This document shows positions 1,016 through 38,768 of a DNA stretch of 64,000 nucleotides, one piece after another. Position 1 is the first letter of the stretch. Every line of letters begins with the position of its first letter. This stretch comes from Schmidtea polychroa (Eukaryota). A program made the position numbers and the translations under genes. The notes beneath the pieces were generated by a model, which was not told the DNA's origin, did not search any database, and saw only the letters and a list, made by a program, of their open reading frames with translations. Where the stretch lies: NCBI GenBank assembly GCA_044892525.1, contig CM097885.1, positions 32,304,001 to 32,368,000 on the forward strand. Reading direction: 5' to 3'.

Positions 1016-1019
1016 GTGG

Positions 1020-1800: not shown

Positions 1801-2009
1801 ATTTTAAAATTTATTAACAAAAAGTTGAAGGTGTTTGAGAATTGAAATTTTTTAATGAAAATTTTTATGGAATAATTTTTTAAGTAATTTTTAATGGAAA
1901 TTTTTATGAAATATTTTTCAATGATAATTTTAGATGGAAATTTTTAAGATAATTTTTAATGAAAATTTTTATGAAATATTTTTCAAAGACAAATTTTAAT
2001 AATAATTCA

Positions 2010-3200: not shown

Positions 3201-3506
3201 ATGAAATTATTGGTTAAATATGAAAATAAGGATTATATTTAGTTGTTAAGTAAATTATGGTGTAAAATTAAGAAATAAAGAATAATTAGGTAAATTAAGG
3301 ATAAGTAAATTAAAGTTAAAAATTTTAAATTAAAGAAAACAATGGTTCAAAATTTAAAATTAAGTATCCAATGGTTCAAATTTTAAATTAAAGCTAAATA
3401 AGTAAATTAAAGTAAGATTTTTAAATTTATTATCAAAAGATTGAATAACCACCAACTTTTTTGAGAAATGTAATTTATAATGAAAATTTAAATGGAAATT
3501 TAAATG

Positions 3507-3558
<52 letters not shown>

Positions 3559-7677: not shown

Positions 7678-7755
7678 CTAGTTTATTACATAACAAGCCG
7701 TGACTAGTTTATTACATAACAAGCCGCAACTAATTTATTACATAACAAGCTGTGA
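7678..7755 (+). repeat. Three 26-bp tandem repeats at the inner end of the arm
   Basis: ctagtttattacataacaagccgtga x3 (degenerate); mirrored at ~8775-8852. Confidence 0.9.
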
Positions 7756-7760
7756 ATGGT

Positions 7761-12714: not shown

Positions 12715-12769
<55 letters not shown>

Positions 12770-19852: not shown

Positions 19853-20718
19853 TGTTGGGGTTCAACAAGAGAGGCACAAAAATGAGGTGAAAATTGATAA
19901 AAACACCAAATTCAAAATAAAAATTTAAAGTACAAAATATTAATTAAAAAAATCAAAATTTTAAAAATGAATATTTTCTGGGGGAAACTGGTATGGGCGG
20001 ATGCTAAATAATGAGACGAGTTCAGCTATAATAAAATAAAATCAATGGGGGGTCCCTAAAAGGAATAAATTACAAAAAACAAAAATTAATTAAAATTAAT
20101 TAACTAATGGAAAACCCGAGCTAATGGGAAACCCGAGCTAATGGAGAACCCGAGCTAATGGGAAACCCGATACAATGGAAAACCCGAGCGAATTGAGAAA
20201 TCCAATTTCGGGAAGGCAATTAATTTAGCCGGATAAAAAGCGCCGTCAAAGGAAATGAGCAAATTCCCTGCAATTAAATTAGACCTCCAAGAGGAAGCCC
20301 GGGGGAAATAAAACCAAAAATAATTGGCAAAAATAAAGTCAATTAACAAGCGAGTATAAAAGCAACTGACAAGAAAACAAAATGCCAGTTGGTCGAAGAA
20401 AAGAAAACAGAAGTTGACGAGAGTGAAAAAGGAAATATCAAAGTTAGTCGAAAGTAAACCATATAAAAAAAAAAATCGAACGTACCAGAAAGGGATATCT
20501 CCCGTTGGAAGATCTACCCCTGCGTGAGATTTGTTGGCAATTGAAAAGTGCAGACAAAACCTGATTGTATCAAGTGTGAGTAAACTAATACAAGTGTAAA
20601 AGTGTAACTGCATCAGTGTCAATAAAGATTTTGTGTTGGGTTATTTGTTTATTTATTTATTTGGAAAAGAACACAAAGGAGTCAGACCGTAGTACCGACT
20701 TGCATTAAAAACCCAACA
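19853..20718 (+). repeat. 5' LTR (866 bp)
   Basis: TG...CA ends with a 7-bp terminal inverted repeat; candidate TATAAAA at 20355; AATAAA at 20621 followed by a GT-rich tract. Confidence 0.97.
20106..20190 (+). promoter_or_regulatory. Five 17-bp tandem repeats in the LTR (putative U3 enhancer array)
   Basis: aatgg(g/a)(a/g)aacccgagct-type unit x5; also present in the 3' LTR. Confidence 0.55.
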
Positions 20719-20722
20719 TATT

Positions 20723-20740
20723 TGGTGAGCCCGACGTGAT
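20723..20740 (+). promoter_or_regulatory. Primer-binding site, tRNA-Trp type
   Basis: TGGTGAGCCCGACGTGAT starts after a 4-nt gap from the LTR and matches the tRNA-Trp PBS of avian leukosis viruses (TGGTGACCCCGACGTGAT) at 17/18. Confidence 0.9.
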
Positions 20741-21186
20741 CAAAAGTCGGTGAAGATTTGTTGAAATTGTGAAAGTATTTGACTATAATATCGAATAATA
20801 CCGACGTGATCAAAAGTCGGTGAAGATTTGTTGAAATTGTGATAATATTTGAGTGATACCGAGGAATAAAAAGGTCGGTGAAAATTTGTTGAGATTAGTA
20901 AAGTATCAAAAAAAAACAATTTGGAAAAAGATAATAATAATTAAATAAATAAATATTGAAGTGAAACGTTTATTTGAAAGTGGTGAACATTATTCGAGAA
21001 TTATTAAAGTGGTGAATTTATTATTGAAGCAAAGTGGGAAAATTTGTAACGAGTGATTGTTGAAAAGTCAAAATTAAAACGAAAGGTAAATTTTGTAATT
21101 GTAATACTTTAAATTTTAGACGAGTAAAACCTGTGTTAACCAGATCATTTTATAAATTGAGAAGCCAAAAACTAGTAGAGAATATA

Positions 21187-24100
21187 ATGAGTACCCAAAG
21201 ACAAGTTAATAATACAAATAATAATGATGAAACACCGGTGTCCACAGTTTCTGTGGGGAATGCCAGGGAAGGCAATGATTATGCGAGTTGCCAAAAACTA
21301 CCTGTGGATCAGTACGGTGGAGATCCGCTGGAATTTGTCGATTTCATGGCAGATTACTATATGTATGCGACGGCCTATGGATGGAGCCAATCGATAATGG
21401 TGCAAAGATTACCGCTATACCTAAAAGGAGCAGCCAGAGAAGCGTGGCAACAAATTGATAAAAGAATAGTAGCAAATGACTGGACCAAGTTGAAAGACGC
21501 TTTAGCTACGAAATTAATCGGAGGGGATATCAAACGGATAATGCGACAGAAATTCTATAACCGCGTACAAAAGCCAGAGGAATCGGTAAGTGAGTTTGCT
21601 TATCATTTATCAACTCTTGCAGAGAAAGCGTTCGAAGTGAAACCAGAACAGGCCGAGATGGCAAAGCAGGTAAAAGAATTATTGCAGGATCAATTCTTGT
21701 CAGGAGTAAAGAAAGAAATTAAAAAGGCTCTATGCTATGTTGATTTTAATGACTTTGATGAATTGATCAAAAAGGCAATGAAAATTGAGCTAAATTTAAA
21801 AAGCACACAGTCAAAATCAGAATCGTTTGCAGTCATCTCAGGCGCAAGCGAAAGATCAGTAACCCCAATTAGAAACAATCGTTTTCAACAAACAAGTAGT
21901 CCATCACCAAAATTTAGATCCAAATTTGAGTCGAACAAGTCAACAGATATTCAAACAGATGGAAAGGAAGGTCCCATCCAATGTAGTCATTGCCAAAGGA
22001 TTGGACACCATGTTAACCAATGCTGGTTTAAAAATAGAGTACAGAGAAGCCCAATTCCGATTCAGTGTGATAATTGCCAAAGAATGGGACATGACAGCAA
22101 TCAATGCTGGTCCAAAAATAATGTACAACGGAGTCCAAGGCAAATGTGGCCTGATTGGTTAAAAGGAAATGGTGCGAAAAGTTTCACTAAAGCGAACATT
22201 AATGAGCCGAGAACTAATGATAACTTACAATGCTTTAATTGCGGAAGAAAAGGGCATGTGTCACGAAATTGTTTTGCCAGGTCAAGATCAACATCAACTT
22301 CACCATCACCGCAGAGAGATAAAGTAAATCTACAAGGACAAATTCAATGTCATTCATGCAGAAGTTATGGACACATGGCTAGATCATGTCCAAGAAATGT
22401 GGATAAATTCCAAAGGCCCATATTAAAGAAATCGATTAGGTTTCAGAGTGACAAACCGCAGATGGATAATGTAGCTTTTATTCAGCCAGATAATTTTAAT
22501 GAAAGAATTGAAAGCGAAGTGAGAGAAATGGGTCGACGTTTGGATCGATTGATGTCAAAGTTTGAATCAGAAGAGGACTACAATAATCACATGATGTATG
22601 AGTCGCAAGAGGAATTGAATGAAAAAGAGTCGAAAAGGAGAGTTATAAAAGATGATTTAGAAAGTGAAAAAGCAACAATGATAATGACCAGAATCGAAAA
22701 ACTAATTGGAAATAATGAAATAGAGTCGGCTAAAGTGATCAAATCGTTGAGAGAATTAAGTCAAATATCTTTGAGCATGAGAAAGATAAAAAGTGTAATT
22801 AGCTTGTGCGTTAACTACTATAATATGAATCCAAAGTATAAAGAAGAAATTAAAGAATTAATGAAAATATTCGGAAAAGCTTTGAGAGAGAAAACAGGGT
22901 TAGATTCCATCTTTGTGGAAGTAGTAAATGGGATTGATAAAAGTGTATTATGTTGTCGTTGTGAGGCAAATGATTGTGTAAATGATTTAAAGAATAAATT
23001 AAAAGAAAAAAAGGAAGGATGCATGATAGAGTTGAGATTTAATGAGAGATTGTTAGAAAATGACGAATTTTTGGTAGATTGTGGATTTATACCAGGGAGT
23101 ATAAATGAATTAAAAATGGAAAATGTAATTACTAGTGATGAAATAATGAGTAGTAAAATAATAGACAAAAGGAATTCAAGGGAGATATTAGAGGAATTAA
23201 ATGATGCGTTATACATTGGAGATGAAGATGAAATCGATGAGAAGTTACAGATTATTGAGAAATTAGAAATGGAGGACAACGATAAACTAAAAATAGTGAA
23301 TACAATACGACCATATTTACATGTGAAAACCAGATATGCCAAGTTATTAAGAAGTTTATTGCAAAGATTGGGCAAGGAGCTCAGAAAGGCAAGAGTAGAG
23401 TTAAAGCCATTTTTGATAGCATTAGATTATGAGGGATATGGCAAAACGGAATATGTAGACGAGCATTGGTGTGCAAAGGTCCGAAAATTGCGGAAGAGAG
23501 CGGCTGAAACGCTGGGAAAAGATGGAATTATTATAGTAATGTACAAAGGTGAAGAACTTGACGATGATGAATACCTATATGATTGTGGGTGTGTACCACA
23601 AGAGCTGGATGAAAACGGATATTTGATCCGAGATGGACGAGTGGGATATTTAGTGAACCATATAGTCGTAGTAAAAGGAGTGAGTTTAGAAGTAAATATT
23701 GAGTCTAACAAGCCTGACACAGAGGAACAAGATGAAAAAGTTAAGGGAAATAAAGAAATTGATGAAATCGTTAGTGATAATGAGCAAAAAGATCCTGATA
23801 ACAAAGATCAGTCCACGGAACCAGACGTACAAGGAGAGCTACTTGTACCTGAAGGCGAAATAAATGGTGAAATCAAAAATAAGAAAGTTAGAACTTTATA
23901 TGAAATAAAGAAATATTTAGTGAGGCTAGAACAGGACGTCGACGAAACTAAGAAAATGTTGAAACATCTCGTTAAAGCAGTATATCCAATGTTCGACATA
24001 GAAATAGAGGTAGAGGATGAACTGAAAGAAATAGTTAAAGAGATGAAGAATAGGCTTCCTGAAGTGATGCAGAAATTTGGCGAAGAGAATACATTCTGCG

Positions 24101-27100
24101 AGAGATCAGTAATTGAAAATTTGGCAAAAAATGAAATTAATAAGGAAGTTATAATAATAGCTTTAACTTATGTTGTTTTAGAAATTGGAACGCATACGTT
24201 CGCAAGGTCAGACAAGTTAGAAAATTTGATAGACATCGCTGCCCGGCTAGTAAACGAATATTTAATGAGCTGGGTAAACGAAAAAGGTGGTTGGAAAACA
24301 CTGTGTTCATCTCTAACAGAAAAGAAAAATGAGAAGCAAGAAATGAGTCCACCCCAAAGACGAGTAAATGAAAGAGTTAAGCCAGAACTAAGAAAAACTA
24401 TGATATTTCCATGGGCGATGTTTATGGTGATTACGTTTTGTGCAATAATTACACAGACATCATCTTTAGTTGCGTACGATTGTTCCCAAATTGAAATGGG
24501 AAAAGTTTATTCGGTAGTAGATATGTCGGAATGCCCAGGTGCGTATCCGAGCAGTTTAAAAATAGAAAATGACGTAAAATATTATGTGTATCAAGAGTCT
24601 GATCTGCGAAGAACTCAAGTGAGAGAGTGTATTGTCAAACATACAACATTTGTATTCTATTGTGGTAAATGGAGCCATACGTCACTCATAAAAATGCATG
24701 CGATACCTAGGCCAGTCGAGGTGCTTCCAGAAAACTGTCTAGCAGCATTTCAAACAGGAGAATTAAAAATAAGTCCAGAAATTCGTTTAAAGGCAAAATT
24801 GAACCATAGAATACGAGAAACAATAATTGTAAAGGGAGTAATGAAAGCAAATGGCGACTGTGAAGGTGAACCATATAAAATGAACGGTAAAATTATTCAG
24901 CAAACAGTGGTGCTAGAAGAATATCTCACGGAGTTGAGAGAGTTCGAAGGAGCTTTCGATGATGATACGGGAAAATTACAAACTCATCCATTCTGTAATA
25001 TGAAACAAACACATTGTCAAACAGGGGAATCGATTCTTGTTTATAATGTAGAAACAAATAAGTGTAATTTAGCGCACTTAAAAACTATGAACTTTAAAGA
25101 GCTAGTAGGAGAACAGTTTAGAGATAAACCAGATAATTTCAATATGAATTATAGACCAAATAATACCATTAAATCAACCCCAGTATGGACAAAGCAAATG
25201 GGAACAGTTATAATGTCTACGTTACCAGCAGATGGAATGCGATTTATAAAAAAGGAAATCACAAATAAATGTGGTCGAATGGTATATGTAACAAATTATA
25301 AAGGTGTTTACGTGCCTAGAAATGTTGTGGAAGAAGCAAAAATTAAAATTCACAGAGATGACATTAAACTTACTCATTATTTTAATAATAAAATTGATTA
25401 TTTGTTTCATTTTAGTCAAAACATCATGGAAAATGTATATAGAGAAATGATTCTGAACGATTGTAAGTTGAATAAAGAGATTCTCCGAAATCGGATGGCG
25501 ATGGCAATTACGAATCCAAATTTAGTAGCACCTATGCTAATATCAGAAAATGGAGTGTTTGCGAGAATATTTGGAGAAGCATTATACAGTTACAAATGCA
25601 AAGAAGTCACAGTGAAAATTGCCAAATACGAAAAATGTACGAATGAATTACCAGTAAGCTTTGGGGGAAAGGTACGATTTATGGAACCGATAACTAGAAT
25701 CTTGCTTGATGAACAAACTAAACCAAAACTTTTGCAATGCAATCGATTATTAGCCCCTTTATACCGATTAGCTACAGACTCATGGATAGCCTTACCAGAT
25801 TATCGTGGGGTCAAGACTCCAGACAAACTAGAATTAACAAATTTAGAATACCTGATAAATTTCACATCACTAAACAAAATGGCACAAATGGGCTTGTATG
25901 CAAGCGAAGATATCGAAGAAGCTCAAAGGAATTTGTTGTTTCCATCCAAAAAGGAACGGATAATTTCAGAAATGATTGACACAGTATTACCGAATGGAGA
26001 AGGAACAGTAAATTACGAAAATTTGCTAACACCTGATCATTTCAAACGAGCTACATATAAAACGATGGAAAAGATTTGGGGCAAGTTCATGTTTTTGGGA
26101 CAAGCATGTGCAGGTTTAATTGGAATTTACGTGATTATGATAACGGCAAAGGTGGTAGTGTCGCAAATGTTGTCAGTACATCGAATATACGCAATATCGG
26201 GATGGTCATGGAAATTAGTTATTGGTTGTATTCCATTGTTGGCTAGATTCTTTATTACAGATCATCAATTTAAAGAAATGGCAAGAGTAAGGGCACAATT
26301 AAGAAATGGCCGAAAAAGTGAGGAATCGACGTGTCAGTCGGAAGATAAAAACGACGATCATAATGATGATAACAACAACGGGGAATCGGAGTATAAATGC
26401 TTTCGAAAAAGTGTAATAAAGAGTAAAGTAGAGCCAGAGTCCAGGTTCTTGCTTGAACCAATGCCAAAATTAAGCGGGATTGATACTCTTAGTAGATGGT
26501 ATACCCCGACATTTAGACCAACAGCACCAATATATCCAAATGAACAATTAAAAGAAATGAAATCTGTAGATAATATCACAATCGAATTAGAGAAGATTGA
26601 ACCAACGAGTGCTGAAATTGAAAGAAAGAATATGCTTGGTCTACCATGCAGCTATGCACTAATGACAACAGTAGTAGGAGGAAAACAACCTCGAATAAAC
26701 ATACAGTTTAACAAGAGAAAAGTGGAAGCTTTATTAGACTCAGGCTCAAGTCATACTATAGTAGCGGAAAGTTTCTTGACGTATCAGGAGAAAGCCAAAA
26801 TAAAACCAACGAATCACATTATTAAATCAATGTCACATAATGCACTAAATATTGTTGGAAAATTAGAAGTTAAACTGATAATTGGAGAGCAAGAAATAAT
26901 TCATTGGGTATCAGTGATGAGAAAAAGTCCTGTAAAATGTCTAATTGGCATGGATGTCATGGAGCAACTACATGGAATCTCTCTTGATCTGAGAACTGGA
27001 AAACTAATAAAAGGACAAATGGGTGAAGTAGTGCCTGAAGTAGGAGAGGTATTTCTAAACCAAACATTGGAAGTACCACCAAAAAGCGAAGTAATCTACT

Positions 27101-29487
27101 ATGCAGATGTTATGAGGGTCTCAGATGAGGAGTACATATTTGAGCCAAATCAAAAGCTGGTTGAAAAATACGATGTGCCTATGTGTGATGAAGTAGTGAA
27201 AGTCCAAAATAAGTCAGTACCAGTTAGAATAGCGAATTATAGTGCAAGATCCGTTGAGATAAAACCCAAAACCAAATTGGGAAAATTAACAAAAATCAAA
27301 TCAGAGGAAGCTCAGAAGTTACCGAGAAATATAAAAATTTATAAAGAACCTCAGATCACAAGCAAAGATTTGACGGATTTGCAAAAACAAGAATTCGGTG
27401 CATTATTAAAGAAATATAGAAATGTATTTGCAAAACATGAGTATGATCTGGGACTCACTCAGGTGATTGAGCATGAAATACCATTACTCAACGAAACCCC
27501 AATAAAATTACGGCCGTACAGAATACCATACATACATCAGGAAGAAAGTGATCGGCAAATCAAAGCAATGAAAGAATTCAATATAATAAGAGATAGTTCC
27601 TCACCATTCTCATCATCAATAGTAGTAGTTAAAAAGAAGGACGGTGATTTAAGATTTTGTGTTGACTATCGAAAATTGAACCAAGTAACGAGAAAAGATA
27701 CATATCCTATTCCTGTTCCACAGGAAATGTTCGATCAGATGGGGGAGGTGCAATATTTTACGGTAATAGATCTTAATAAAGGATACAATCAATTTAAAGT
27801 CAAAGAGGAAGATAGAAGGAAAACTGCATTTTCAGATGGGAAGGGTCTATATGAGTTTAACGTGTTACCATTCGGATTAACAGGAGCACCTGCTACATTT
27901 CAGAGAGGTATGAATTTTGTTTTGCGCGATATACCACATGCATTAGTGTATATTGACGATATTATAATATTTTCGAATAGTTTTCAGGAACATTTGCAGG
28001 ATGTGGAAACAGTATTCAAGCGATTGTTAGAAGCAAACTTAAAAATAAAACCCTCCAAATGTGAATGGGGGAAATCTGAAGTCGTTTATGTGGGTCATAT
28101 CATTTCGCGTCGAGGTTTGCAACCAAATCCAGAAAATGTAGAAAAAATTGGGAAATATCCTATTCCCAAGGATGTAGATCAGGTTCGACAATTTCTGGGA
28201 TTAGCCAGTTATTACAGAAAGTTTATTAAAAGTTTCTCACACGTAGCACAACCTTTGAACATGTTATTGAAAAAGCAAGCAAAATTTAAATGGACAACAG
28301 CTCAGCAAGAAGCGTTTGATAAACTCAAAGAAAGCTTAATAAAACAGCCGATATTAAGATGTCCGAACTTTAAAAAACCGTTTATATTAATGACAGATGC
28401 CAGTAATTTCGCATTAGGCGCGGTATTAGGACAGCAAGTAGAAGGGGAAAAAGATCATGTAATTGCTTATGCCAGCAGATCATTGAAACCTCATGAAAAG
28501 AATTATTCAACAATCGAAAAGGAAACGTTAGCATTGGTATATGGGATAACTACTTTTCGACAATATCTAGTGGGCAGAAAATTTGTCGTCTTTACAGATC
28601 ACAATCCGTTACAATGGCTAATGAAGCACAGAGATTCGGCCAGTAAATTAATTAGGTGGTCAATTGCGTTACAAGAATATGATTTCGAGATAAAGTATCG
28701 TACAGGAAAATCAAATGCAAATGCGGATGCTATGTCGAGAATACCCGTAGAAAATAATGTTGATCAAGATGAGAAAAATTGCGAAAATACCATATTCTTG
28801 GCAATTAAAACGGTAAATAATATCGAAAAATTACAAGATGATCAGGAAAATGACGAGGAATTAAATCAGTTACGTCAACATGCTGTCTCAATCAAAAAGG
28901 AGAGTGACTGGAAACATATTGCCGAAGAGAACCATAAATACATTATTCATGATGGTTTGTTAAAATGTGTACAAAATGAAAATTTGTTAATTATTGTTCC
29001 GACAAAACATCGAAAAGCATTGATGTTGTTGTATCACGATGGAGCATTAGGAGGGCATTTATCAGCGCGAAAAACATTATCAAGATTGAAACAGAAATAT
29101 TATTGGAAAACGATGGAACAAGATGTCAGACAATGGTGTCATACGTGTGAGATATGCCTAACAAGACGAAATACGGGACGGAAAATAAAAGTTCCGCTTA
29201 AGCCTATGCCAGTGCCAAAGGCGCCAATGGAAATGACAGCAATGGACATCGTTGGTCCATTGCCGGAAACAACAAATGGCAACAAATACATTATCGTTTT
29301 TTGCGATTATCTTACTAAATGGCCAGAAGCTTATGCAATGCCAAATCAGAAAGCAGAAACAGTTGCGAAAATATTTGTGGAGAATATTATTTTTCGATAC
29401 GGAGCACCAAAGAAATTACTTACAGATCAAGAACAAATTTTCAGAGTGAATTATTTAAATCAATCACAGATTTATTTGGTATATTAA
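21187..29487 (+). CDS. Polyprotein part 1: Gag - UBL x2 - Bcl-2-like - envelope-like glycoprotein - PR - RT - RNase H - IN N-terminal half
   Basis: ORF 21133-29487, first ATG 21187. Four CX2CX4HX4C knuckles (21982-22389); LLDSGS protease (26731); LPFGL and YIDD (27949) RT; TDAS...DAMSR RNase H; HHCC and the first two Asp of integrase. Confidence 0.95.
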   Translation: MSTQRQVNNTNNNDETPVSTVSVGNAREGNDYASCQKLPVDQYGGDPLEFVDFMADYYMYATAYGWSQSIMVQRLPLYLKGAAREAWQQIDKRIVANDWTKLKDALATKLIGGDIKRIMRQKFYNRVQKPEESVSEFAYHLSTLAEKAFEVKPEQAEMAKQVKELLQDQFLSGVKKEIKKALCYVDFNDFDELIKKAMKIELNLKSTQSKSESFAVISGASERSVTPIRNNRFQQTSSPSPKFRSKFESNKSTDIQTDGKEGPIQCSHCQRIGHHVNQCWFKNRVQRSPIPIQCDNCQRMGHDSNQCWSKNNVQRSPRQMWPDWLKGNGAKSFTKANINEPRTNDNLQCFNCGRKGHVSRNCFARSRSTSTSPSPQRDKVNLQGQIQCHSCRSYGHMARSCPRNVDKFQRPILKKSIRFQSDKPQMDNVAFIQPDNFNERIESEVREMGRRLDRLMSKFESEEDYNNHMMYESQEELNEKESKRRVIKDDLESEKATMIMTRIEKLIGNNEIESAKVIKSLRELSQISLSMRKIKSVISLCVNYYNMNPKYKEEIKELMKIFGKALREKTGLDSIFVEVVNGIDKSVLCCRCEANDCVNDLKNKLKEKKEGCMIELRFNERLLENDEFLVDCGFIPGSINELKMENVITSDEIMSSKIIDKRNSREILEELNDALYIGDEDEIDEKLQIIEKLEMEDNDKLKIVNTIRPYLHVKTRYAKLLRSLLQRLGKELRKARVELKPFLIALDYEGYGKTEYVDEHWCAKVRKLRKRAAETLGKDGIIIVMYKGEELDDDEYLYDCGCVPQELDENGYLIRDGRVGYLVNHIVVVKGVSLEVNIESNKPDTEEQDEKVKGNKEIDEIVSDNEQKDPDNKDQSTEPDVQGELLVPEGEINGEIKNKKVRTLYEIKKYLVRLEQDVDETKKMLKHLVKAVYPMFDIEIEVEDELKEIVKEMKNRLPEVMQKFGEENTFCERSVIENLAKNEINKEVIIIALTYVVLEIGTHTFARSDKLENLIDIAARLVNEYLMSWVNEKGGWKTLCSSLTEKKNEKQEMSPPQRRVNERVKPELRKTMIFPWAMFMVITFCAIITQTSSLVAYDCSQIEMGKVYSVVDMSECPGAYPSSLKIENDVKYYVYQESDLRRTQVRECIVKHTTFVFYCGKWSHTSLIKMHAIPRPVEVLPENCLAAFQTGELKISPEIRLKAKLNHRIRETIIVKGVMKANGDCEGEPYKMNGKIIQQTVVLEEYLTELREFEGAFDDDTGKLQTHPFCNMKQTHCQTGESILVYNVETNKCNLAHLKTMNFKELVGEQFRDKPDNFNMNYRPNNTIKSTPVWTKQMGTVIMSTLPADGMRFIKKEITNKCGRMVYVTNYKGVYVPRNVVEEAKIKIHRDDIKLTHYFNNKIDYLFHFSQNIMENVYREMILNDCKLNKEILRNRMAMAITNPNLVAPMLISENGVFARIFGEALYSYKCKEVTVKIAKYEKCTNELPVSFGGKVRFMEPITRILLDEQTKPKLLQCNRLLAPLYRLATDSWIALPDYRGVKTPDKLELTNLEYLINFTSLNKMAQMGLYASEDIEEAQRNLLFPSKKERIISEMIDTVLPNGEGTVNYENLLTPDHFKRATYKTMEKIWGKFMFLGQACAGLIGIYVIMITAKVVVSQMLSVHRIYAISGWSWKLVIGCIPLLARFFITDHQFKEMARVRAQLRNGRKSEESTCQSEDKNDDHNDDNNNGESEYKCFRKSVIKSKVEPESRFLLEPMPKLSGIDTLSRWYTPTFRPTAPIYPNEQLKEMKSVDNITIELEKIEPTSAEIERKNMLGLPCSYALMTTVVGGKQPRINIQFNKRKVEALLDSGSSHTIVAESFLTYQEKAKIKPTNHIIKSMSHNALNIVGKLEVKLIIGEQEIIHWVSVMRKSPVKCLIGMDVMEQLHGISLDLRTGKLIKGQMGEVVPEVGEVFLNQTLEVPPKSEVIYYADVMRVSDEEYIFEPNQKLVEKYDVPMCDEVVKVQNKSVPVRIANYSARSVEIKPKTKLGKLTKIKSEEAQKLPRNIKIYKEPQITSKDLTDLQKQEFGALLKKYRNVFAKHEYDLGLTQVIEHEIPLLNETPIKLRPYRIPYIHQEESDRQIKAMKEFNIIRDSSSPFSSSIVVVKKKDGDLRFCVDYRKLNQVTRKDTYPIPVPQEMFDQMGEVQYFTVIDLNKGYNQFKVKEEDRRKTAFSDGKGLYEFNVLPFGLTGAPATFQRGMNFVLRDIPHALVYIDDIIIFSNSFQEHLQDVETVFKRLLEANLKIKPSKCEWGKSEVVYVGHIISRRGLQPNPENVEKIGKYPIPKDVDQVRQFLGLASYYRKFIKSFSHVAQPLNMLLKKQAKFKWTTAQQEAFDKLKESLIKQPILRCPNFKKPFILMTDASNFALGAVLGQQVEGEKDHVIAYASRSLKPHEKNYSTIEKETLALVYGITTFRQYLVGRKFVVFTDHNPLQWLMKHRDSASKLIRWSIALQEYDFEIKYRTGKSNANADAMSRIPVENNVDQDEKNCENTIFLAIKTVNNIEKLQDDQENDEELNQLRQHAVSIKKESDWKHIAEENHKYIIHDGLLKCVQNENLLIIVPTKHRKALMLLYHDGALGGHLSARKTLSRLKQKYYWKTMEQDVRQWCHTCEICLTRRNTGRKIKVPLKPMPVPKAPMEMTAMDIVGPLPETTNGNKYIIVFCDYLTKWPEAYAMPNQKAETVAKIFVENIIFRYGAPKKLLTDQEQIFRVNYLNQSQIYLVY
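22909..23670 (+). other. Two ubiquitin-like domains within the polyprotein
   Basis: IFVEVVNG..SVLCCRCEANDCVNDLKNKLKEK..IELRFNERLLENDEFLVDCGFIPGSINEL aligns by eye to the ubiquitin pattern. The second copy is KVRKLRKRAAETLGKDGIIIVMYKGEELDDDEYLYDCG. Confidence 0.7.
24016..24315 (+). other. Bcl-2-family-like domain within the polyprotein
   Basis: BH2-like YLMSWVNEKGGWKTL, preceded at Bcl-2-like spacing by a degenerate BH1 region (NEINKEVIIIALTY in place of NWGRIV). Confidence 0.7.
24400..26256 (+). other. Envelope-like glycoprotein (chuvirus G-like, class III fusion type) embedded between Gag and protease
   Basis: Signal peptide MIFPWAMFMVITFCAIITQTSS|LVAYDC; Cys-rich ectodomain (VRECIVKHTTFVFYCGKWSH, GDCEGEPY, IFGEALYSYKCKEVTV, KCTNELPVSFGG, FMEPITRIL); hydrophobic segments at ~26086-26178 and ~26194-26256. 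Confidence 0.8.
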
Positions 29488-31376
29488 AACTTAGTACCTC
29501 ACCATATCATCCACAAACAGATGGTCTAGTTGAAAGATTTAATGGGACACTAATTAATATGATATCATCCTATGTAAATAGGAAACAAAAGGATTGGGAT
29601 TTATTCATTAAACCATGCCTATTTGCATACCGGAATGCAGTAAATGAAAGCACTGGAGAAACACCCTTTTATCTCATGTATCTACGGCGAAGCAATATGC
29701 CAGTCGATCTAGAATTTCAGTCACCTATTTCCCAATATATGGATGTGTCAGATTATAAAATAGCTATGCATGAAAGACTACAGTCAGTATGGATCCAAGC
29801 TGGACTTAACATAAGGCATCATCAAGAAGCGTATAAAGAATGCTATGATAAACGCGCACGGGCGCATGACATTAAAATTGGAGATCTCGTGTATATAAAC
29901 AAACCAGAACCAACAAAAGGCTTGTCAACGAAATTGCAACGACCGTTTAAAGGACCATATCTAGTGTGTGATACGACAGAGACTAACTTAAAATTGCGTC
30001 CACAAAACAATAAAAAGGCTGGGACAATCATCGTTCATGTAAACAGATGCAAGAAGATAATAGAAGATGAATCACGTTATCCATTGAGATCAAAACCAAA
30101 TAAAGATGCAGGGAACCCAGTAATTAAACAAAAGTTTACAAAAAACCCTGCTCCATTGAGTTACATCAATAAAGTTTTATTGATTACAACAGTAATGATT
30201 ATCAATATAATGTCAGTAAATGCAGTGAGAGTATTCCCGTTATATGCAACTAATACAGTTGTATTATTAGACAAAGTTCATATTTATTCAACATGTACTC
30301 AAATAGTTTGGGTTTATTATGCTGGAGGAGCAGAAGAAATAGAGATAGATAATCTAATAAACTATTTCGAACCCCCAATAAAATTGAACAGCACCAAAAA
30401 TATTTATGTGGCTAGACAATTAACAATGAATTATGAATACCCTTGGTTAATTACGCAATTGGATTCGAAAAGTAATAATACAAAAATACAAAATCTTATA
30501 CGTATTAATATTTGGACAAAGAGATTACATAATCGAGTATCAATTGAACCACTGGTAAATGGAATTGACATATATTGGGAACCCCAGGAATCCCAACAAG
30601 TAAAAGCAGTTTTTCAAAATTATGCGATAGATACATTGAATAGCAGAAAACCCTTTATAAAGTATGCAAATTTAAAATTACATCATAACTATAATATTCT
30701 GATTCATTATTATGAAAAATCTTTATATGAAAACGGAACTGAAATTGATAGTCAATGGATCAGAATACACTCTAGTCAACATATGATACGATTAGTTAAT
30801 GAAACAAATCGGGTTACTTTTCATATTTTCAATCAATTAGTGAACGTTACCCGACAAGCGGAGCCCAATCAAAAAGCTATTTTATATTATTATGGAAAAA
30901 TTCAATCGATATTAAATGAAAAAAATAAATCTCAAATATTAACTTTTCGTCAACGTTCACCAATATCAACGTCAAAATTTGTGTTCATTAAAATAAAATA
31001 CTATAGACGTTCTCTATTTTCAAATTTATGGCAATTAACATTAGTGGAAAATAAAATTGTGCAAATTCCATCTATTAACTCGCAGTATGGAAATCGAAAC
31101 AAATCAAATCAGTCCAACCGAACCCCTAGCTCTGTCAACGTAATCATCTTTTCTAGCATCAATGAGTCAATGACTAATAACGAAACCATATCGTCATTAA
31201 AAACTGACAGTGAAATTGTGTGTGTCACATTATTAATAACTACTCTCATTATAACAATCTCTCTTATTATTCTCATTATCATTGTGCTAATTGAATTTCG
31301 AACAATACCCAAACCTTCTACGAATCGATCCGAGATTGCGAGACCTTGGATCGTTTATGAAGAAACATTTGTGTAG
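29431..31376 (+). CDS. Polyprotein part 2 (after 1-bp frameshift): IN catalytic core and C-terminus, then a second signal peptide and a type I TM glycoprotein
   Basis: Frame of ORF 29319-31376. TNFQSELF...SPYHPQTDGLVERFN completes D-35-E; GPY motif; hydrophobic KVLLITTVMIINIMSVNA (30171-30224); ~10 N-x-S/T sequons; TM at 31215-31293. Confidence 0.9.
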
Positions 31377-31805
31377 TAAGACATAAATACTTTGCATGCA
31401 AAATTGATAAAGTAGTAGTAGCAATATAGTACAAATATTTTATGGATATTATTAATATTTTATTTCATTATGGATATGATCAATAATTCATTTTATTTTA
31501 CTTGTGAATCTGCACTTTTCAATGTCAACGGAAAGAATCAATTTGATTGGTTAGCGCTGTGTTAAGGGGGAGAGAAAAACGGGGTTAAGGGAATTTTCGT
31601 AAGGGTATTAAAAGAGGGTAAAATCCATTAAACTCCATTAATTTTGAGAAAAAAAAAATATCAACAATTAACTAAACGGTAATTATTATTATTTATTTAT
31701 ATAACTAGTCGGTGGGACGGTATCCTTTGGGTACCCCATCTCAACCCTAGTGTTAAAATTAAATTAACTTCAAATTTTAATTATATAACTATTGTAGAAA
31801 AAAAA

Positions 31806-33275
31806 ATGGAACAAATACAATTGGCAAGGTCGACCTACGACAGCTACATCAAAATGAAGAACAATCATGCCGGACAAAAAGTATACCGGATCAACGACAA
31901 TCTCCAAATCCCAAATTATTTAAGAATTGATGACCGAAAAATGAAGATCCAAATGTTTACGATCATGAGGATGTCAAAATTGCGATTAGCAGAAGAAGTC
32001 GAGATGTCAAGGAAAGAAGAATATCATCTACATGTGATCAAGGGTACCGTTGAGGTACTGACGAATGACAACAAAGTGTGTTGGGAACTAAAAAAATTTA
32101 CGTCGTGGAAGCTGCAGAGAGACTTCATGTGGAGAACGTTACGAGCAGCGAATGAAGAAACAACCATGGTAGTGGAAATCAGAATCGAAAATGAAGCGAA
32201 CGAAGTTCCGCAGATGCAGCCAAGTGCAAGAGAAGATCCAATGTTAACGAAAATTTCGAAAGAAATGTTGAAAAGGAAAATGTCGTTTCTCAGAAAGGAA
32301 ATGGATTTGGAAGAAATCCGCAACAGAATATTGTTTATTGATGCAGAATATGGCACGTCTGAACAAGGAAAAATGGTCCCTCTAGCACTAGCGATTATGA
32401 ATTATTATGGAAAAATAATAAAGAATATATACTTGACTCCAAGAGGAAAAATTCGCCATTTTAATTCAAGGATTCACGGAATCACAGAAGTAGCTAGCAG
32501 GAATCAATGCGATCAATATGTGGCAACAAAGGACATCCAACAATTGACAGTTGGCAAGATACTAGTGGGCCATGATTTACATGCAGAATTACAATATTTG
32601 GGAATATGGATTGAGCAATTATATGGCATTCGTGATTTGGCAGCGGCACCAGCACTCCAAAACAGGGGAGTAACCAGGAAAGGAGAATGGTTCAAATTAC
32701 AAACCGTAGTGAGAGAAATATGTGGAGAAGAGACACAAATTGGTGTGCATTCGGGTCTAGAGGATGTGAAGAGCATTCGCAAGGTATATCAGAGAGTGGA
32801 AAATCAATGGATTGACGATATACCAATGCCCAAAAACCTACCATCAAAGAAATATTCGTTGGAGGAATATAAAAAACTTCGAGAGGTACCATCAGCATCA
32901 ACTGCAATAGCGGACAAAGTGGCACAAATTCTGGTTGACGATGCAATGGAAGCAGAACAAATTGACTTGACAAGCGAGGAGAATGTGGAGATGGAGACGG
33001 AAAATCCATTAATTCCATTAAAGTGGGCCACCGAATCGTTTTTGGAAATTTCACAAGAATGTGTTTCAGTAATGATAAGTGTTTCGATGGTAAGAATACA
33101 CCCAACACTTGAGTATGGTCCAATGCCCGAATGTCGACAAGCGAGAAAAAGGAAAAACACTTCAAATATTGATGTTGGGGAGACTGTAACCATCGATGGG
33201 GTAATCTATGAACGAGAAGAAACAATAATACGGTATCGGCATGGAACCAAACAATTGGAAATAAAAATGAACTAA
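31806..33275 (+). CDS. DEDDh 3'-5' exonuclease (ISG20/REX4-like) accessory protein inside the LTR element
   Basis: 489-aa intact ORF: ExoI FIDAEYG, NSRIHGIT, ExoII KILVGHDLHAELQYL (Glu at the usual Asp), IRDLA, ExoIII HSGLEDVKS; basic RKRK near the C-terminus. Confidence 0.88.
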   Translation: MEQIQLARSTYDSYIKMKNNHAGQKVYRINDNLQIPNYLRIDDRKMKIQMFTIMRMSKLRLAEEVEMSRKEEYHLHVIKGTVEVLTNDNKVCWELKKFTSWKLQRDFMWRTLRAANEETTMVVEIRIENEANEVPQMQPSAREDPMLTKISKEMLKRKMSFLRKEMDLEEIRNRILFIDAEYGTSEQGKMVPLALAIMNYYGKIIKNIYLTPRGKIRHFNSRIHGITEVASRNQCDQYVATKDIQQLTVGKILVGHDLHAELQYLGIWIEQLYGIRDLAAAPALQNRGVTRKGEWFKLQTVVREICGEETQIGVHSGLEDVKSIRKVYQRVENQWIDDIPMPKNLPSKKYSLEEYKKLREVPSASTAIADKVAQILVDDAMEAEQIDLTSEENVEMETENPLIPLKWATESFLEISQECVSVMISVSMVRIHPTLEYGPMPECRQARKRKNTSNIDVGETVTIDGVIYEREETIIRYRHGTKQLEIKMN

Positions 33276-33413
33276 ATTAATATGTATATATATATAATAT
33301 TTATAAAAAATAAATAATGTTGAACTCGCGTTGTCTCAGTTATTAATTGGTAGCTCATCAGTTAAACCCCATAATTAAAAAAAATGTATAAATAATAAAT
33401 AAAACTTTTAATA

Positions 33414-33480
33414 ACAACATACACATTCCCAATTGTTGGAGTTTGGCTACCCTGGACAACAATTGGAAATGTGTGGTTGT
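33414..33480. other. Long hairpin in the 3' non-coding region of the retroelement
   Basis: acacattcccaattgttg (33421-33438) pairs 17/18 with caacaattggaaatgtgt (33457-33474), extended by acaac/gttgt. Confidence 0.75.
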
Positions 33481-34080
33481 CAGTAGTCATTAATTTTTCC
33501 ATTGAAATCGTTTATGAATAAATGGAACTATATCGTATCTAAATCTACATTTGGTTATAAGTTTCTCTGTGTATCTCGGTGTCTCTATATCTATATTTAT
33601 TTATCCAAAACCATTTATTTATATCTAGGCATAAAATTTGAGTATAGACTATTTTGCTTTGATAACTAAATATAATTTTATAAAATTGGCCCATGACAAT
33701 TGAATTTCAAATAGTGTAAAAAAAAAAAAAAAAAAAAAAAAAATCAACAAAATTATATTAACTAATATCTACATACTTCATGGTTTCATATTCGCTTGAA
33801 TTTCAAATAGTGTAAAAAAATCAACAAAATTATATTAATTAATATCTACATACTTCATGGTTTCATACTCGCTTCGAAATCAACAATATTCATGTTTCGA
33901 CGCACCATTTTAAGTTGGAAATAGATTTTCAATTTCCAGTTAATACAGTGACAATTGCGGTAATTAATTTTAAGTATATGTTTCAATTTATTGTATTAAA
34001 TCATCAAAGAATCTGAAAGTTATTTTACACAATATAATAAATAATCGATATAAGTTTATATTAACAAAAAATTTATCCAC

Positions 34081-34817
34081 CTGCATAAGAGGACGATCTT
34101 GAGGTAATAATAAATAATTCTTTGCTTCATCAAATAATCAATATAAGTTTATATTAACAAAAAAAAAAAAAAAAATTTTTATCCACCTGCATAAGAGGAC
34201 GATCTTGAGGTAATAATAAATAAAGTGTACTTGAAAATTATGATGTGTAAATTTATCAGCAATGGTTAATAAGTCATTACAAGCATGAGTATCAGCAAAG
34301 GCTTGGATACCTAAGCAATTAGATGGATCAAGCTGCTGTTTTAAAAATTCACAACAAACATCTTAAATTTCTGATAATTGTAATAAACAAGCAGCTGGTA
34401 GTAAACACTGTAGATTCCATTCTTCAATAACAATTTGAGATATATAACAAAATTCTACCAATGCTTCAACAGCACGTTCATCGATATCCCTTAATGTTAC
34501 CTAATATCGTTTGATAAAGATAACCAAATAGTTAATTACTTCATTTTGTAGTGATTCAGATAATTCGCCAGTAAACATAGCTTTAAAATAATGACTACAT
34601 GCAGATAACACAATTCTATGGACTAAGATTTTTTTTGTTGACCAACAATCAAGGCTACGTCACATAATTCGCCGTGTTTTCTTAGTTGATTAATGGATTC
34701 CAAAGTAATTTTTGGGTGCTTCTCAGAGAAGTAGCATAATTTGTTAAACGGATTAGAATTGAATGCACCCCCAGAACATTGATCTCCAGTAATAATCTTT
34801 TTCTCATTTTGTTGCAC
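34081..34817 (-). pseudogene. KLHL20: Captured, disabled and rearranged KLHL20-like (BTB-BACK) gene fragment
   Basis: [48 protein letters not shown]|intron|[70 protein letters not shown], plus [16 protein letters not shown]. Frameshift at ~34630, TAA stop at 34363-34365, 39-nt GT-AG intron at 34501-34539. Confidence 0.9.
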
Positions 34818-35300
34818 ATCACAATAGTTAATAGAAAATGGTTAAAAATATGAAGAAATAAATAAAATCCCTTACCTATTAATAAATTATTCACCAACCA
34901 TTCAAATCAAACTACGAGTCGTACCGAGGATTTCCGCGGCTTCGGTGCGTTCGGTGGCTTCTGATTGGCTTTCTCCTTATCTCGTGTAAGAACTGAAAGA
35001 AGAAAGAAATAAATCTATTTTGCGAAACAAAATTAAATTACCCTTGAATTAGTTGTCCAAATTGTAGATATGAAAAAAATTCAATTTGATTGACCATATC
35101 AATAATTTCTGCAATTAGATAGAATCAGTGGGTAATGCAAATATGAAATTGAGAAAGGAATTCAAACAATAATTTGATAATATTTAATTGATTGCCCTCA
35201 ACTGCAATTAAATTAGTTGCTCATTAGTAAAATGAGTTCGAGATTTACAAAATTGCAAGAAAAAGAAAAATTGATATAATAATAATAATTATTATTATTG

Positions 35301-35343
<43 letters not shown>

Positions 35344-35556
35344 AAAAAAATCATAATATAATAATTAGATATAATAATTAGATATAATAATTATTGCTAT
35401 TATTGTTATTATCGTTATTATTGTTATCGGTAGGAATTATTGTTATTATTATCGGTAGTATTATTATCGTCATTATTATTGTTATTAGTAACATTATTAT
35501 TTATAATGGTAAATTAGACTTATTATATACATGCAGATTCGAGGTCGAATCTAAAT

Positions 35557-35569
35557 AAAAGGGGGGAGA
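35557..35569 (+). promoter_or_regulatory. Polypurine tract
   Basis: aaaaggggggaga just upstream of the 3' LTR. Confidence 0.9.
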
Positions 35570-35571
35570 TA

Positions 35572-36436
35572 TGTTGGGGTTCAACAAGAGAGGCACAAAA
35601 ATGAGGTGAAAATTGATAAAAACACCAAATTCAAAATAAAAATTTAAAGTACAAAATATTAATTAAAAAAATCAAAATTTTAAAAATGAATATTTTCTGG
35701 GGGAAACTGGTATGGGCGGATGCTAAATAATGAGACGAGTTCAGCTATAATAAAATAAAATCAATGGGGGGTCCCTAAAAGGAATAAATTACAAAAAACA
35801 AAAATTAATTAAAATTAATTAACTAATGGAAAACCCGAGCTAATGGGAAACCCGAGCTAATGGAGAACCCGAGCTAATGGGAAACCCGATACAATGGAAA
35901 ACCCGAGCGAATTGAGAAATCCAATTTCGGGAAGGCAATTAATTTAGCCGGATAAAAAGCGCCGTCAAAGGAAATGAGCAAATTCCCTGCAATTAAATTA
36001 GACCTCCAAGAGGAAGCCCGGGGGAAATAAAACCAAAAATAATTGGCAAAAATAAAGTCAATTAACAAGCGAGTATAAAAGCAACTGACAAGAAAACAAA
36101 ATGCCAGTTGGTCGAAGAAAAGAAAACAGAAGTTGACGAGAGTGAAAAAGGAAATATCAAAGTTAGTCGAAAGTAAACCATATAAAAATAAAATCGAACG
36201 TACCAGAAAGGGATATCTCCCGTTGGAAGATCTACCCCTGCGTGAGATTTGTTGGCAATTGAAAAGTGCAGACAAAACCTGATTGTATCAAGTGTGAGTA
36301 AACTAATACAAGTGTAAAAGTGTAACTGCATCAGTGTCAATAAAGATTTTGTGTTGGGTTATTTGTTTATTTATTTATTTGGAAAAGAACACAAAGGAGT
36401 CAGACCGTAGTACCGACTTGCATTAAAAACCCAACA
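35572..36436 (+). repeat. 3' LTR (865 bp)
   Basis: Matches the 5' LTR; the only difference spotted by eye is in an A-tract (A11 vs AAAAATAAAA). Confidence 0.97.
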
Positions 36437-37626: not shown

Positions 37627-38768
37627 ATCAAAAACAAGACAATCCATACTTTTTATATATTGACATAACGGGAAAACACATGTGAATAGAAGGAATGTCT
37701 TGTTATCGTAAATATATATTTTGGTATATTTGATTTATGTTACTAATTAAAAATTAAAGCTCTAAAAATTATTTAATGAAACTTGTCAAAATCCAGTTAT
37801 ACTCTTTTTTAAGTTTTTATTTAAACAAATTTCTTTGAGACTATTTTTAAAAATAATTCAAATAATAATTTCATAAAAATTCTGCATTCAATTAAAATTT
37901 CATACTCGTTATAATTTTATATGTTTCAGTATTTCATCCAAAAGATTTTCTTATTGTATTATCGAAGCAATGGACAAGATCTGGCTAATAATCTTTCATA
38001 TTTTGAAATTATTTTAATGTTTGAAATGTTTCTGTCTTTTGTAAATGAGAAGAACAAAATTAGACATTTATGATATAGAAAAAGTTATAAACACTAGAAA
38101 ATATAGACTCAAACCTCGTAATTCCATTCATTATTTTTCCTAATATAATGGGTCAAATCATGCAAGTGCAAGACAAATTTTACTTTCATACTCTCCATCA
38201 TCCTCCATATTTACTAGAATTGGTTCAAAATTATTTTTATTTGTTTCTGCATCCTTAAAAATATTTACGTACCTAATAAACTTTAAACACGAAGATTACG
38301 AAAGAGATTCATTATTTGTTTGATATTAAAATTTTGCTTTTACAAAAATGTTTATTTACATGATCTAATTTAAATTACAATTAAGAAAGAAATAATTACA
38401 ATTAATATTTTTAAAAAATGATAAAAATAAATACATCGTATGATATTTTTATGAAAACTTTTGTAGCCAGTACAAATTACAGAATTTGTCAGCTTTCCAT
38501 TAAAAATCTTTGAAATTTAATGTTGAGTTTTCAGATTAAATGAAAGCCGACCAAATATATCACAAATGTTTTTCTTTCTTTTAAATATTGCCTATAAAGA
38601 AACGAAGAAAAATCATTTAAAAATAAAATCCTAATCTTTACTCACCTTGGCGAAAAAATATTATCCAATCAAATATCGATAACTAATAAAAATTTTTAAA
38701 TGATTTTAATTGGTTGATAGATATATATTTTCTGAAAATAAATAAATATCTTCATTTTATTCTAGATT

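What the first reader, a model, noticed from the sequence alone, without database searches (positions are those of the whole stretch)
30171..31376. Second membrane glycoprotein fused in-frame after integrase
Seen: after the IN GPY region come a hydrophobic signal-like stretch ending VNA, ~330 aa with ~10 N-glycosylation sequons and few Cys, a Ser/Asn-rich stalk, a ~26-aa TM and a short tail. The segment IYWEPQ...YANLKLHHNYNILIHYY is reminiscent of fibronectin type III. Inference: a separate attachment or immune-decoy protein, so the element may have a two-component envelope.
Basis: partly seen in the sequence, partly recalled or inferred. Interest (0 to 1): 0.72.

Follow-up and report, generated by a model that had tools for sequence, protein, structure and literature searches.

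The report
Retrotransposon with second, fibronectin-like surface protein
A retrovirus-like jumping gene in a likely flatworm genome carries a fusion-protein gene plus, fused in frame behind its integrase, a second gene for a predicted membrane protein of three fibronectin-type domains, which likely works as an adhesion partner helping the element pass from cell to cell.

Summary
The stretch is the last part of the pol frame of a 16.6-kb Ty3/Gypsy element, Gag–(ubiquitin-like, Bcl-2-like)–gB-type Env–PR–RT–RH–IN, close to planarian GAG-ENV-POL errantiviruses. After the integrase GPY module come a 38-aa linker, a signal-like stretch, three predicted FN3 domains (AlphaFold pLDDT 75; Foldseek E 5e-10 to fibronectin), an S/T/N stalk, a 26-aa TM and a 27-aa tail.

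Six homologues were found. Two keep the in-frame integrase–signal–ectodomain fusion although ectodomains are only 23–28% identical; four start too far downstream to tell. All four proteins with an intact tail end in T-x-V, a class I PDZ-binding motif (background 1 of 403 ORFs).

The best reading is an accessory adhesion or attachment glycoprotein, cut from the polyprotein by signal peptidase and held at cell contacts, serving the class III fusogen. Function, expression and virion incorporation are untested. This copy is frameshifted in the integrase core. Published coordinates hint that some Schmidtea relatives stop after integrase. My searches of the held literature found no description. New variant of a known kind.

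The parts
19853..20718 (+). 5' LTR (TG...CA), preceded by target-site duplication AATT
   Evidence: 873-bp repeat at 99.5% identity; ends read from sequence
20723..20739 (+). Primer-binding site, tRNA-Trp-like
   Evidence: Sequence; tRNA assignment recalled, not tested
21187..29487 (+). Polyprotein ORF: Gag (zf-CCHC), ubiquitin-like, Bcl-2-like, internal signal, gB/chuvirus-type Env with TM, PR, RT, RNase H, N-half of integrase; ends after a frameshift in the IN core at about 29.4 kb
22921..23100 (+). Ubiquitin-like domain (weak, below Pfam cut-off)
   Evidence: PF00240 E 7e-4 on the sub-region
24022..24294 (+). Bcl-2-like domain (weak, below Pfam cut-off)
   Evidence: PF00452 E 3e-4 on the sub-region
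24394..26178 (+). Class III-type fusogen (Env): internal signal to TM
   Evidence: PF24664 Monjiviricetes_fusion E 1e-86; hydropathy; about 78% identical by hand count to Smed_errantivirus_1 Env over 251 aa
29490..30056 (+). Integrase C-half with GPY module, ending NRCKK
30057..30170 (+). Linker, in frame, no stop; length but not sequence kept in relatives
   Evidence: Linker plus signal 56, 53 and 51 aa in window, P0005, P0004; 19-31% identity
30171..30224 (+). Predicted internal signal sequence, cleavage after V-N-A
   Evidence: Hydropathy; equivalent sites S-Q-A, V-F-A, S-G-A in homologues
30264..30515 (+). FN3 domain 1 (predicted)
30519..30803 (+).
   Evidence: Z 9.6, rmsd 2.0 A over 78 aa to fibronectin FN6
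30807..31079 (+). FN3 domain 3 (predicted)
31074..31214 (+). Ser/Thr/Asn-rich stalk with five sequons
31215..31292 (+). Transmembrane helix (predicted, 26 aa)
31293..31376 (+). 27-aa cytoplasmic tail ending E-T-F-V (class I PDZ-binding motif), then stop
   Evidence: T-x-V end in window, P0001, P0002, P0005; motif definition from PMC4810129
31806..33275 (+). Separate ORF: DEDD exonuclease, ISG20L2-like
   Evidence: phmmer to 7yw5 E 4e-11
34141..34841 (-). Broken antisense BTB-BACK (Kelch-like) gene fragment inside the element
35557..35569 (+). Polypurine tract
   Evidence: Sequence
35572..36436 (+). 3' LTR, followed by AATT

Best explanation
The pol frame of this gB-type GAG-ENV-POL errantivirus continues in frame past integrase into a predicted type I membrane protein with three FN3 domains, which is likely released from the polyprotein by signal peptidase and likely serves as an accessory adhesion or attachment partner of the fusogen at cell contacts. 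SHOWN: the open frame; the same fusion in two divergent relatives; a T-x-V end in all four intact tails. PREDICTED: signal, three FN3 domains, TM. INFERRED: the polyprotein threads the ER membrane four times (Env signal, Env TM, second signal, second TM). That keeps Gag and PR-RT-RH-IN cytosolic and puts both ectodomains in the lumen. The FN3 protein would be made 1:1 with Env in the same membrane and would supply the polyprotein's only free C-terminus. That terminus would bind a host PDZ scaffold and hold the protein, and so the budding or transfer site, at junctions or polarised membrane. The fast-evolving ectodomain would contact a host surface molecule on the target cell, the job other glycoproteins do for herpesvirus gB.
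For: Fusion conserved: P0005 is one 912-aa ORF, RNase H tail-IN-GPY-linker-signal-ectodomain-TM. P0004 begins with the IN tail in frame with signal and ectodomain. Linker plus signal length is kept (56/53/51 aa) at 19-31% identity; a crude neutral model gives 0.02-0.04 per lineage for keeping frame and no stop. Fold: AlphaFold with a 7-row alignment, pLDDT 74.9, three beta-sandwiches. Foldseek PDB top hits are three-FN3 fibronectin fragments, E 5e-10; VIA Z 9.3-9.7; ESM Atlas features FN3 at 0.89 (window) and 0.93 (P0002). Rate contrast window vs P0005: IN halves 61% and 65%, ectodomain 25% (alignment score 186 vs shuffle maximum 54.5), as expected of a host-facing surface. T-x-V ends in 4 of 4 proteins with TM and tail (3 lineages) vs 1 of 403 background ORFs. 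HTLV-1 Env uses a class I motif with DLG1 at the virological synapse (PMC4810129 passages). 4 of 4 listed substitutions in this gene among other copies are synonymous. The arrangement is clade-specific: 0 of 90 distant gypsy loci match the ectodomain profile, and none of the 46 reaching the GPY end shows a signal-plus-TM extension.
Against: No expression, localisation, receptor or particle data; no run on record as RNA. This copy is frameshifted in IN and could not make the protein via the polyprotein. Smed_errantivirus_1 and _2, whose Env is close to this one, have listed spans of 14,784 and 14,793 nt including 3,000 nt each side of Gag start and Pol stop. That gives about 8.8 kb, matching this element up to the end of IN (8.9 kb), not to the TM stop (10.2 kb), so those relatives may stop after IN. 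P0002 (89% to P0005) was called from a Met inside the linker on a 2.8-kb contig, which may mean a break upstream in that copy. P0002/P0005 and P0004 have a Met just before the signal, so separate translation is possible there. The P0002/P0005 signal did not pass my hydropathy thresholds. Whether P0001, P0004 and P0005 belong to elements with a gB-type Env is unknown (contigs 0.8-2.8 kb). The synonymous-site count rests on the 40 rows shown of 1,777. One contig spanning the gene has 2 gaps, one unplaced. The T-x-V motif was noticed post hoc. A fold shows no function.
Confidence: 0.5

Rival explanations
1. Host-manipulating receptor mimic on the producing cell: a captured adhesion or signalling receptor that acts as a decoy, a dominant negative or a junction modulator. 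It would join the Bcl-2-like, ubiquitin-like and exonuclease cargo in helping the host cell tolerate the element, with no role in entry.
For: The element carries other host-modulating cargo. Fold neighbours include cytokine receptors and CD45. Fast divergence fits a host conflict. Viral class I motifs often disturb polarity scaffolds (PMC4810129 passages).
Against: No WSxWS in the window protein, P0001, P0002 or P0005; one ectodomain Cys. No host parent found by sequence among 1.84 billion representatives. Membrane-anchored rather than secreted.
Confidence: 0.22
2. A separate accessory gene made from its own spliced or internally started mRNA; the shared frame with integrase is a leftover of capture and the fusion protein does not matter.
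For: A Met lies just before the signal in P0002/P0005 and P0004. P0002 was called as a stand-alone 410-aa protein. Listed spans of Smed_errantivirus_1/2 suggest Pol ends after IN. One contig shows a GT..AG joint in the leader, so the element may be spliced.
Against: The window protein has no Met between the IN body and the middle of the hydrophobic core. No AG near the junction has an upstream pyrimidine fraction above 0.58. No leader-to-junction joint among the 15 joints shown of 197. Frame and linker length are kept across saturated sequence.
Confidence: 0.14
3. Superinfection exclusion: the protein occupies or masks the receptor on cells that already carry the element.
For: Surface location and scaffold-binding tail; receptor interference by endogenous retroviral envelopes is established (recalled).
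Against: No direct evidence. Interference is usually done by the Env itself (recalled).
Confidence: 0.07
4. What is selected is the signal anchor, which tethers Pol to the membrane for packaging because lumenal Env separates Gag from Pol; the ectodomain is a passenger.
For: Linker length and signal are conserved while the ectodomain diverges. The topology leaves Pol between two membrane anchors.
Against: Pol is already tethered through the Env TM. Three complete FN3 domains, stalk, TM and T-x-V are kept in three lineages.
Confidence: 0.05
5. Chance read-through or misassembly.
For: The copy is mutated elsewhere (IN frameshift).
Against: Open-frame chance about 6e-17. A contig from another run spans 29401-31468 and another spans the junction (30045-30502) without gaps. 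Homologous fusions in P0004 and P0005.
Confidence: 0.02

Closest known systems
HSV/gB-type GAG-ENV-POL errantiviruses of Platyhelminthes, closest Smed_errantivirus_1 (Chary & Hayashi, PMC13524379; seen: abstract, sections 5, 11, 14, 15, passages, rows of supplementary files 1, 2, 4, 5)
   Same: Ty3/Gypsy pol, Env between Gag and Pol, class III-type fusogen; Env about 78% identical over 251 aa by hand count (54 differences).
   Different: The main text has no occurrence of 'fibronectin', 'accessory' or 'attachment' and says the entry mechanism of gB-only elements is unknown. The second glycoprotein is not described there; listed spans suggest Pol may stop after IN in Smed_1/2.
Burro/GYPSM1 giant planarian LTR elements (Arkhipova & Yushenova, PMC6431247; passages seen)
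   Same: Gag, ubiquitin/SUMO-like, BCL2-like and Env fused in frame before PR in one polyprotein; accessory ORFs.
   Different: Burro exceeds 30 kb and its Env is described as gypsy/paramyxovirus F-like; this element is 16.6 kb with a gB/chuvirus-type Env. No post-integrase FN3 protein is mentioned ('fibronectin' 0 occurrences).
Atlas virus / Cer13 belpaoviruses of nematodes (Merchant et al., PMC9094657; section 6 and passages seen)
   Same: Membrane glycoproteins encoded in frame at the end of a single Gag-Pol-Env polyprotein; two-component envelope (GN attachment, variable; GC fusion).
   Different: BEL/Pao, with phlebovirus-derived GN-GC captured together and a class II fusogen. Here the two glycoproteins are unrelated, flank Pol on either side, and the second has a cellular-type FN3 fold.
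HTLV-1 Env with class I PDZ-binding motif binding DLG1 (review PMC4810129; passages seen)
   Same: Retroelement surface glycoprotein ending in S/T-x-hydrophobic, linked there to cell-to-cell spread.
   Different: There the motif sits on the fusogen; here the fusogen's tail runs on into PR and the motif sits on a second protein. Binding is untested here.
ORF3 cargo of bdelloid LTR elements (Rodriguez et al., PMC5408684; passages seen)
   Same: DEDD exonuclease ORF after pol; small TM proteins after pol.
   Different: Separate ORF3s, no FN3 reported, not added to an existing fusogen.

Membership tests
Ty3/Gypsy LTR retrotransposon | Paired LTRs TG...CA with TSD, PBS and PPT | tested here: met
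Ty3/Gypsy LTR retrotransposon | Order PR-RT-RH-IN with a GPY module | tested here: met
Ty3/Gypsy LTR retrotransposon | RT placed in the Ty3/Gypsy tree | not tested
   No tree built; inferred from domain order and Env likeness to Smed_errantivirus_1
HSV/gB-type GAG-ENV-POL errantivirus | Class III-type Env between Gag and Pol | tested here: met
   PF24664 E 1e-86 between zf-CCHC and protease; likeness to Smed_errantivirus_1
HSV/gB-type GAG-ENV-POL errantivirus | Uninterrupted RT and IN ('intact' in that paper's sense) | tested here: not met
   This copy is frameshifted in the IN core; contigs in 4 of 4 runs differ in length from the window at that place, so the defect looks copy-specific
Burro/GYPSM1 | Ubiquitin-like and BCL2-like domains and in-frame Env before PR | tested here: met
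   Weak Pfam hits below cut-off; definition
Burro/GYPSM1 | Over 30 kb, about 5,000-aa ORF, F-like Env | tested here: not met
   16.6 kb, gB-type Env
FN3-repeat type I membrane protein | Tandem beta-sandwiches of FN3 type | tested here: met
   Predicted model only
FN3-repeat type I membrane protein | Match to a Pfam FN3 sequence profile | tested here: not met
   0 of 7 alignment members hit fn3; one hit fn3_2 at E 0.69
FN3-repeat type I membrane protein | Cleaved signal and single TM | tested here: inconclusive
   Hydropathy and small-x-Ala sites; P0002/P0005 signal under threshold; no SignalP or DeepTMHMM
Class I cytokine receptor or viral mimic of one | WSxWS motif and conserved N-terminal Cys pairs (definition recalled) | tested here: not met
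   No WSxWS; one Cys in the window ectodomain
Belpaovirus GN-GC envelope (Atlas, Cer13) | Phenuivirus-like Cys-rich GN and class II GC after IN | tested here: not met
   One Cys; top fold matches are FN3 arrays
Class I PDZ ligand | S/T-x-hydrophobic at the free C-terminus | tested here: met
Class I PDZ ligand | Binding to a PDZ domain | not testable with these tools
   Needs a binding assay
Viral attachment glycoprotein | Incorporation in particles and receptor binding | not testable with these tools
   No data

The most novel reading that the evidence does not exclude
A clade of flatworm errantiviruses has assembled a two-part entry machine from unrelated sources: a chuvirus/gB-type fusogen and a captured cell-adhesion receptor (three FN3 domains, PDZ-binding tail). 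The two flank Pol in one four-pass polyprotein, and the receptor builds a junction-anchored synapse for cell-to-cell spread, supplying the missing partner of gB-type retroelement envelopes.
Probability: 0.35. Interest if true: 0.85.

Novelty: new variant of a known kind. Interest (0 to 1): 0.66.

Why it matters
The survey that defined gB-type errantiviruses states that their entry mechanism is unknown, because herpesvirus gB needs partner glycoproteins (PMC13524379). This element names a concrete, testable candidate partner, with a tail motif that predicts where in the cell it acts. It also shows an LTR element recruiting a cellular-type adhesion fold into its polyprotein, and a possible route by which such elements move between cells in planarians. 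If the protein is instead host-modulating cargo, it is still an undescribed class of retroelement accessory gene.

Tried and rejected
No whole genome is held, so copies could not be counted.
Word-index search with the window protein alone: 0 hits among 2,589 candidates.
Single-sequence AlphaFold failed (pLDDT 31).
Pfam: no family for the post-IN protein. PDB sequence searches with profiles A1 and A3: nothing meaningful; the hit shows that P0003 is a chimeric gene model ending in a host dehydrogenase tail, so only its first 80 aa count.
BFVD fold search: generic FN3 arrays of phages and algal viruses, with herpesvirus gC at ranks 43-44 and no specific viral relative.
Locus searches with P0002 (metagenomes), the window protein, the IN C-half and P0005 (viral contigs) found nothing. 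Alignment A4 returned only distant gypsy loci (80 kept of 499 confirmed in a scan stopped early; 10), used as a negative control.
No RNA holder listed; contigs cannot show expression.
Profile-profile likeness among the three domains is weak (probability 13-38%). No RGD, LDV, WSxWS or furin-like site in the window ectodomain.
No complex prediction was obtained.
Literature: (retrotransposon + fibronectin type III) each listed 3 unrelated papers; searches found no account of this protein. Sacco et al. 2022 did not come up and Grohme et al. 2018 is not held. Repbase entries and the Chary & Hayashi GitHub sequences and figures could not be seen and may bear on novelty and on where Pol ends.
Earlier scan findings: none on this protein.

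Full report
CONTEXT. The finding lies in an LTR retroelement at 19853-36436 (16.6 kb). The LTRs align over 873 bp at 99.5%, end TG...CA, and are flanked by AATT on both sides; a PBS and a PPT are in place. The main ORF (ATG at 21187) encodes zinc knuckles, weak ubiquitin-like and Bcl-2-like domains, a Monjiviricetes-type fusion glycoprotein (PF24664, E 1e-86), protease, RT, RNase H and the first half of integrase. The integrase core is frameshifted at about 29.4 kb and continues in the frame that holds the finding. Contigs in 4 of 4 runs laid differ in length from the window at that place, and relative P0005 is uninterrupted there, so the break looks copy-specific. The Env matches Smed_errantivirus_1 of Chary & Hayashi (PMC13524379, supplementary file 2) at about 78% over 251 aa by hand count. 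A planarian host is therefore likely; other notes on this genome say the same (unchecked).

OBSERVATION. After the GPY module (ending at 30056) the frame stays open for 440 codons, against 45 and 40 stops in the other frames; chance is about 6e-17. It encodes a 38-aa linker, a hydrophobic stretch ending V-N-A, a 329-aa ectodomain with one Cys and 11 sequons (5.4 expected, P=0.01), a 46-aa S/T/N stalk within it, a 26-aa TM and a 27-aa tail. No Pfam family matches.

RELATIVES. phmmer over 1.84 billion representatives gave 4 hits, P0001-P0004. Profile searches added P0005 and P0006. P0005 is one 912-aa ORF from the RNase H tail through integrase, linker, signal, ectodomain and TM. P0004 starts with the integrase tail in frame with signal and ectodomain. 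The other four start downstream of the junction and cannot show it. P0002, 89% identical to P0005, was called from a Met in the linker on a 2.8-kb contig, which could hide an upstream break. So 2 of 6 show the fusion, none shows a stop, and 4 are uninformative. Window vs P0005: integrase halves 61% and 65%, ectodomain 25%; linker plus signal is 56, 53 and 51 aa at 19-31% identity. A crude neutral model gives 0.02-0.04 per lineage for keeping frame without a stop. As a control, none of 90 distant gypsy loci matches the ectodomain profile, and none of the 46 that reach the GPY end carries a signal-plus-TM extension; one has a single hydrophobic window, and the longest extensions mostly look by eye like RT following IN. 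Among near copies, 20 runs from 11 studies hold the stretch or part of it. One contig spans 29401-31468 with 16 substitutions and 2 gaps, and one spans the junction without gaps. The 4 listed substitutions in this gene are all synonymous, vs 9 of 17 in the main ORF, but only 40 of 1,777 rows were shown.

A contrary hint: the listed spans of Smed_errantivirus_1 and _2, minus the 3,000-nt extensions from Gag start and Pol stop, are about 8.8 kb. That fits an end at integrase rather than at the TM stop (10.2 kb here). Either those relatives stop after IN or the annotation ended at the homology limit; I could not see their sequences.

FOLD. Single-sequence folding failed. With a 7-row alignment the model reached pLDDT 74.9 and pTM 0.50 (three of five models near or above 69) with three beta-sandwich domains. 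Foldseek's best PDB hits are three-domain fibronectin fragments (E 5e-10; whole-model TM about 0.3, probably because inter-domain angles differ). VIA-align gives Z 9.3-9.7 to fibronectin arrays and 2.0 A over 78 residues for domain 2 against FN6. These Z values are moderate and many FN3 proteins tie, so no specific parent can be named. ESM Atlas features point the same way (0.89 for the window protein, a lead only; 0.93 for P0002). There is no WSxWS or RGD.

TAIL. The four proteins with an intact TM and tail end E-T-F-V (window), S-T-L-V (P0002, P0005) and V-T-Q-V (P0001), though the tails show no other clear likeness by eye. T-x-V ends 1 of 403 background ORFs, and S/T-x-V/I/L 12 of 403. This is the class I PDZ-binding consensus; HTLV-1 Env uses one to meet DLG1 at the virological synapse (PMC4810129 passages). 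The motif was noticed post hoc, P0001's stop was not checked, and binding is untested.

MECHANISM. Hydropathy gives four membrane segments in alternating order: Env signal, Env TM, second signal, second TM (a fifth short peak lies inside the Bcl-2-like domain). Inferred: Gag and Pol stay cytosolic, both ectodomains enter the ER, signal peptidase frees them, and the element's protease trims Pol. The window protein has no Met ahead of its hydrophobic core and no convincing splice acceptor nearby, which favours the polyprotein route here; P0004 and P0005 have a Met that would allow either route. The protein would be made alongside Env, and its end is the polyprotein's only free C-terminus. A fast-changing ectodomain with a fixed scaffold-binding tail best fits an adhesion or attachment protein placed at cell contacts, aiding Env-driven transfer (0.5). 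Rivals are host modulation (0.22), separate expression with an incidental frame (0.14), superinfection exclusion (0.07), Pol tether (0.05) and artefact (0.02).

KNOWN SYSTEMS. The element works like, and by gene order and Env belongs with, the gB-type GAG-ENV-POL errantiviruses. It shares Burro's ubiquitin-BCL2-Env front end but not its size or Env class. Glycoproteins at the end of a single polyprotein, and a two-part envelope, are known from Atlas virus, but those are phlebovirus GN-GC. The exonuclease ORF recalls bdelloid ORF3s. I found no description of an FN3 protein after integrase in the papers read (0 occurrences of 'fibronectin') or in searches. Subscription papers, Repbase, Grohme 2018, Sacco 2022 and the GitHub data were not seen.

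VERDICT. Real, coding, conserved as a fusion in divergent relatives, and very likely an FN3-repeat type I membrane protein. Its role as fusogen partner is a reasoned but untested inference. New variant of a known kind; interest 0.66.

Noticed in passing
window 31806-33275 (+): Separate ORF inside the element with an ISG20L2-like DEDD exonuclease domain (E 4e-11) behind a ~170-aa N-terminal part of unknown kind; 6 of 7 listed differences in other copies change the residue.
   Followed up: partly
window 34141-34841 (-): Broken BTB-BACK (Kelch-like) host gene fragment, antisense, apparently with a short intron, between the exonuclease ORF and the PPT. Contigs from other runs cover it but run on into different flanks, so it may be in only some copies.
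   Followed up: partly
window 24022-24477 (+): The Bcl-2-like domain is followed by the Env internal signal, which after cleavage could serve as the C-terminal membrane anchor typical of Bcl-2 proteins (inference).
   Followed up: no
window ~22900-23600 (+): Two similar helical-plus-ubiquitin-like units appear in tandem after Gag (read; only the first scored in Pfam).
   Followed up: partly
window ~21086-21143 (+): One contig of run X1 skips 58 nt with GT..AG ends just upstream of the Gag ATG: a possible short leader intron.
   Followed up: no
window 20720-20890 (+): The PBS and following ~60 nt are partly repeated two to three times in the leader.
   Followed up: no
window ~18-15458: A 15-kb near-perfect palindrome: nested inverted arms at 93-99% around a 1-kb centre at 7765-8765, with mirrored GC skew and tandem arrays. 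Related ends recur at 59.2-60.5 kb. Foldback element or assembly artefact.
   Followed up: no
window 38766-39827 (+): Intronless 353-aa ORF that looks like a seven-TM receptor by eye; no Pfam hit.
   Followed up: no
P0003: Public gene model joining a piece of this FN3 protein (47% identity over 72 aa) to a 3-hydroxyisobutyrate dehydrogenase tail: probably a mis-annotation in a genome that carries a related element.
   Followed up: partly
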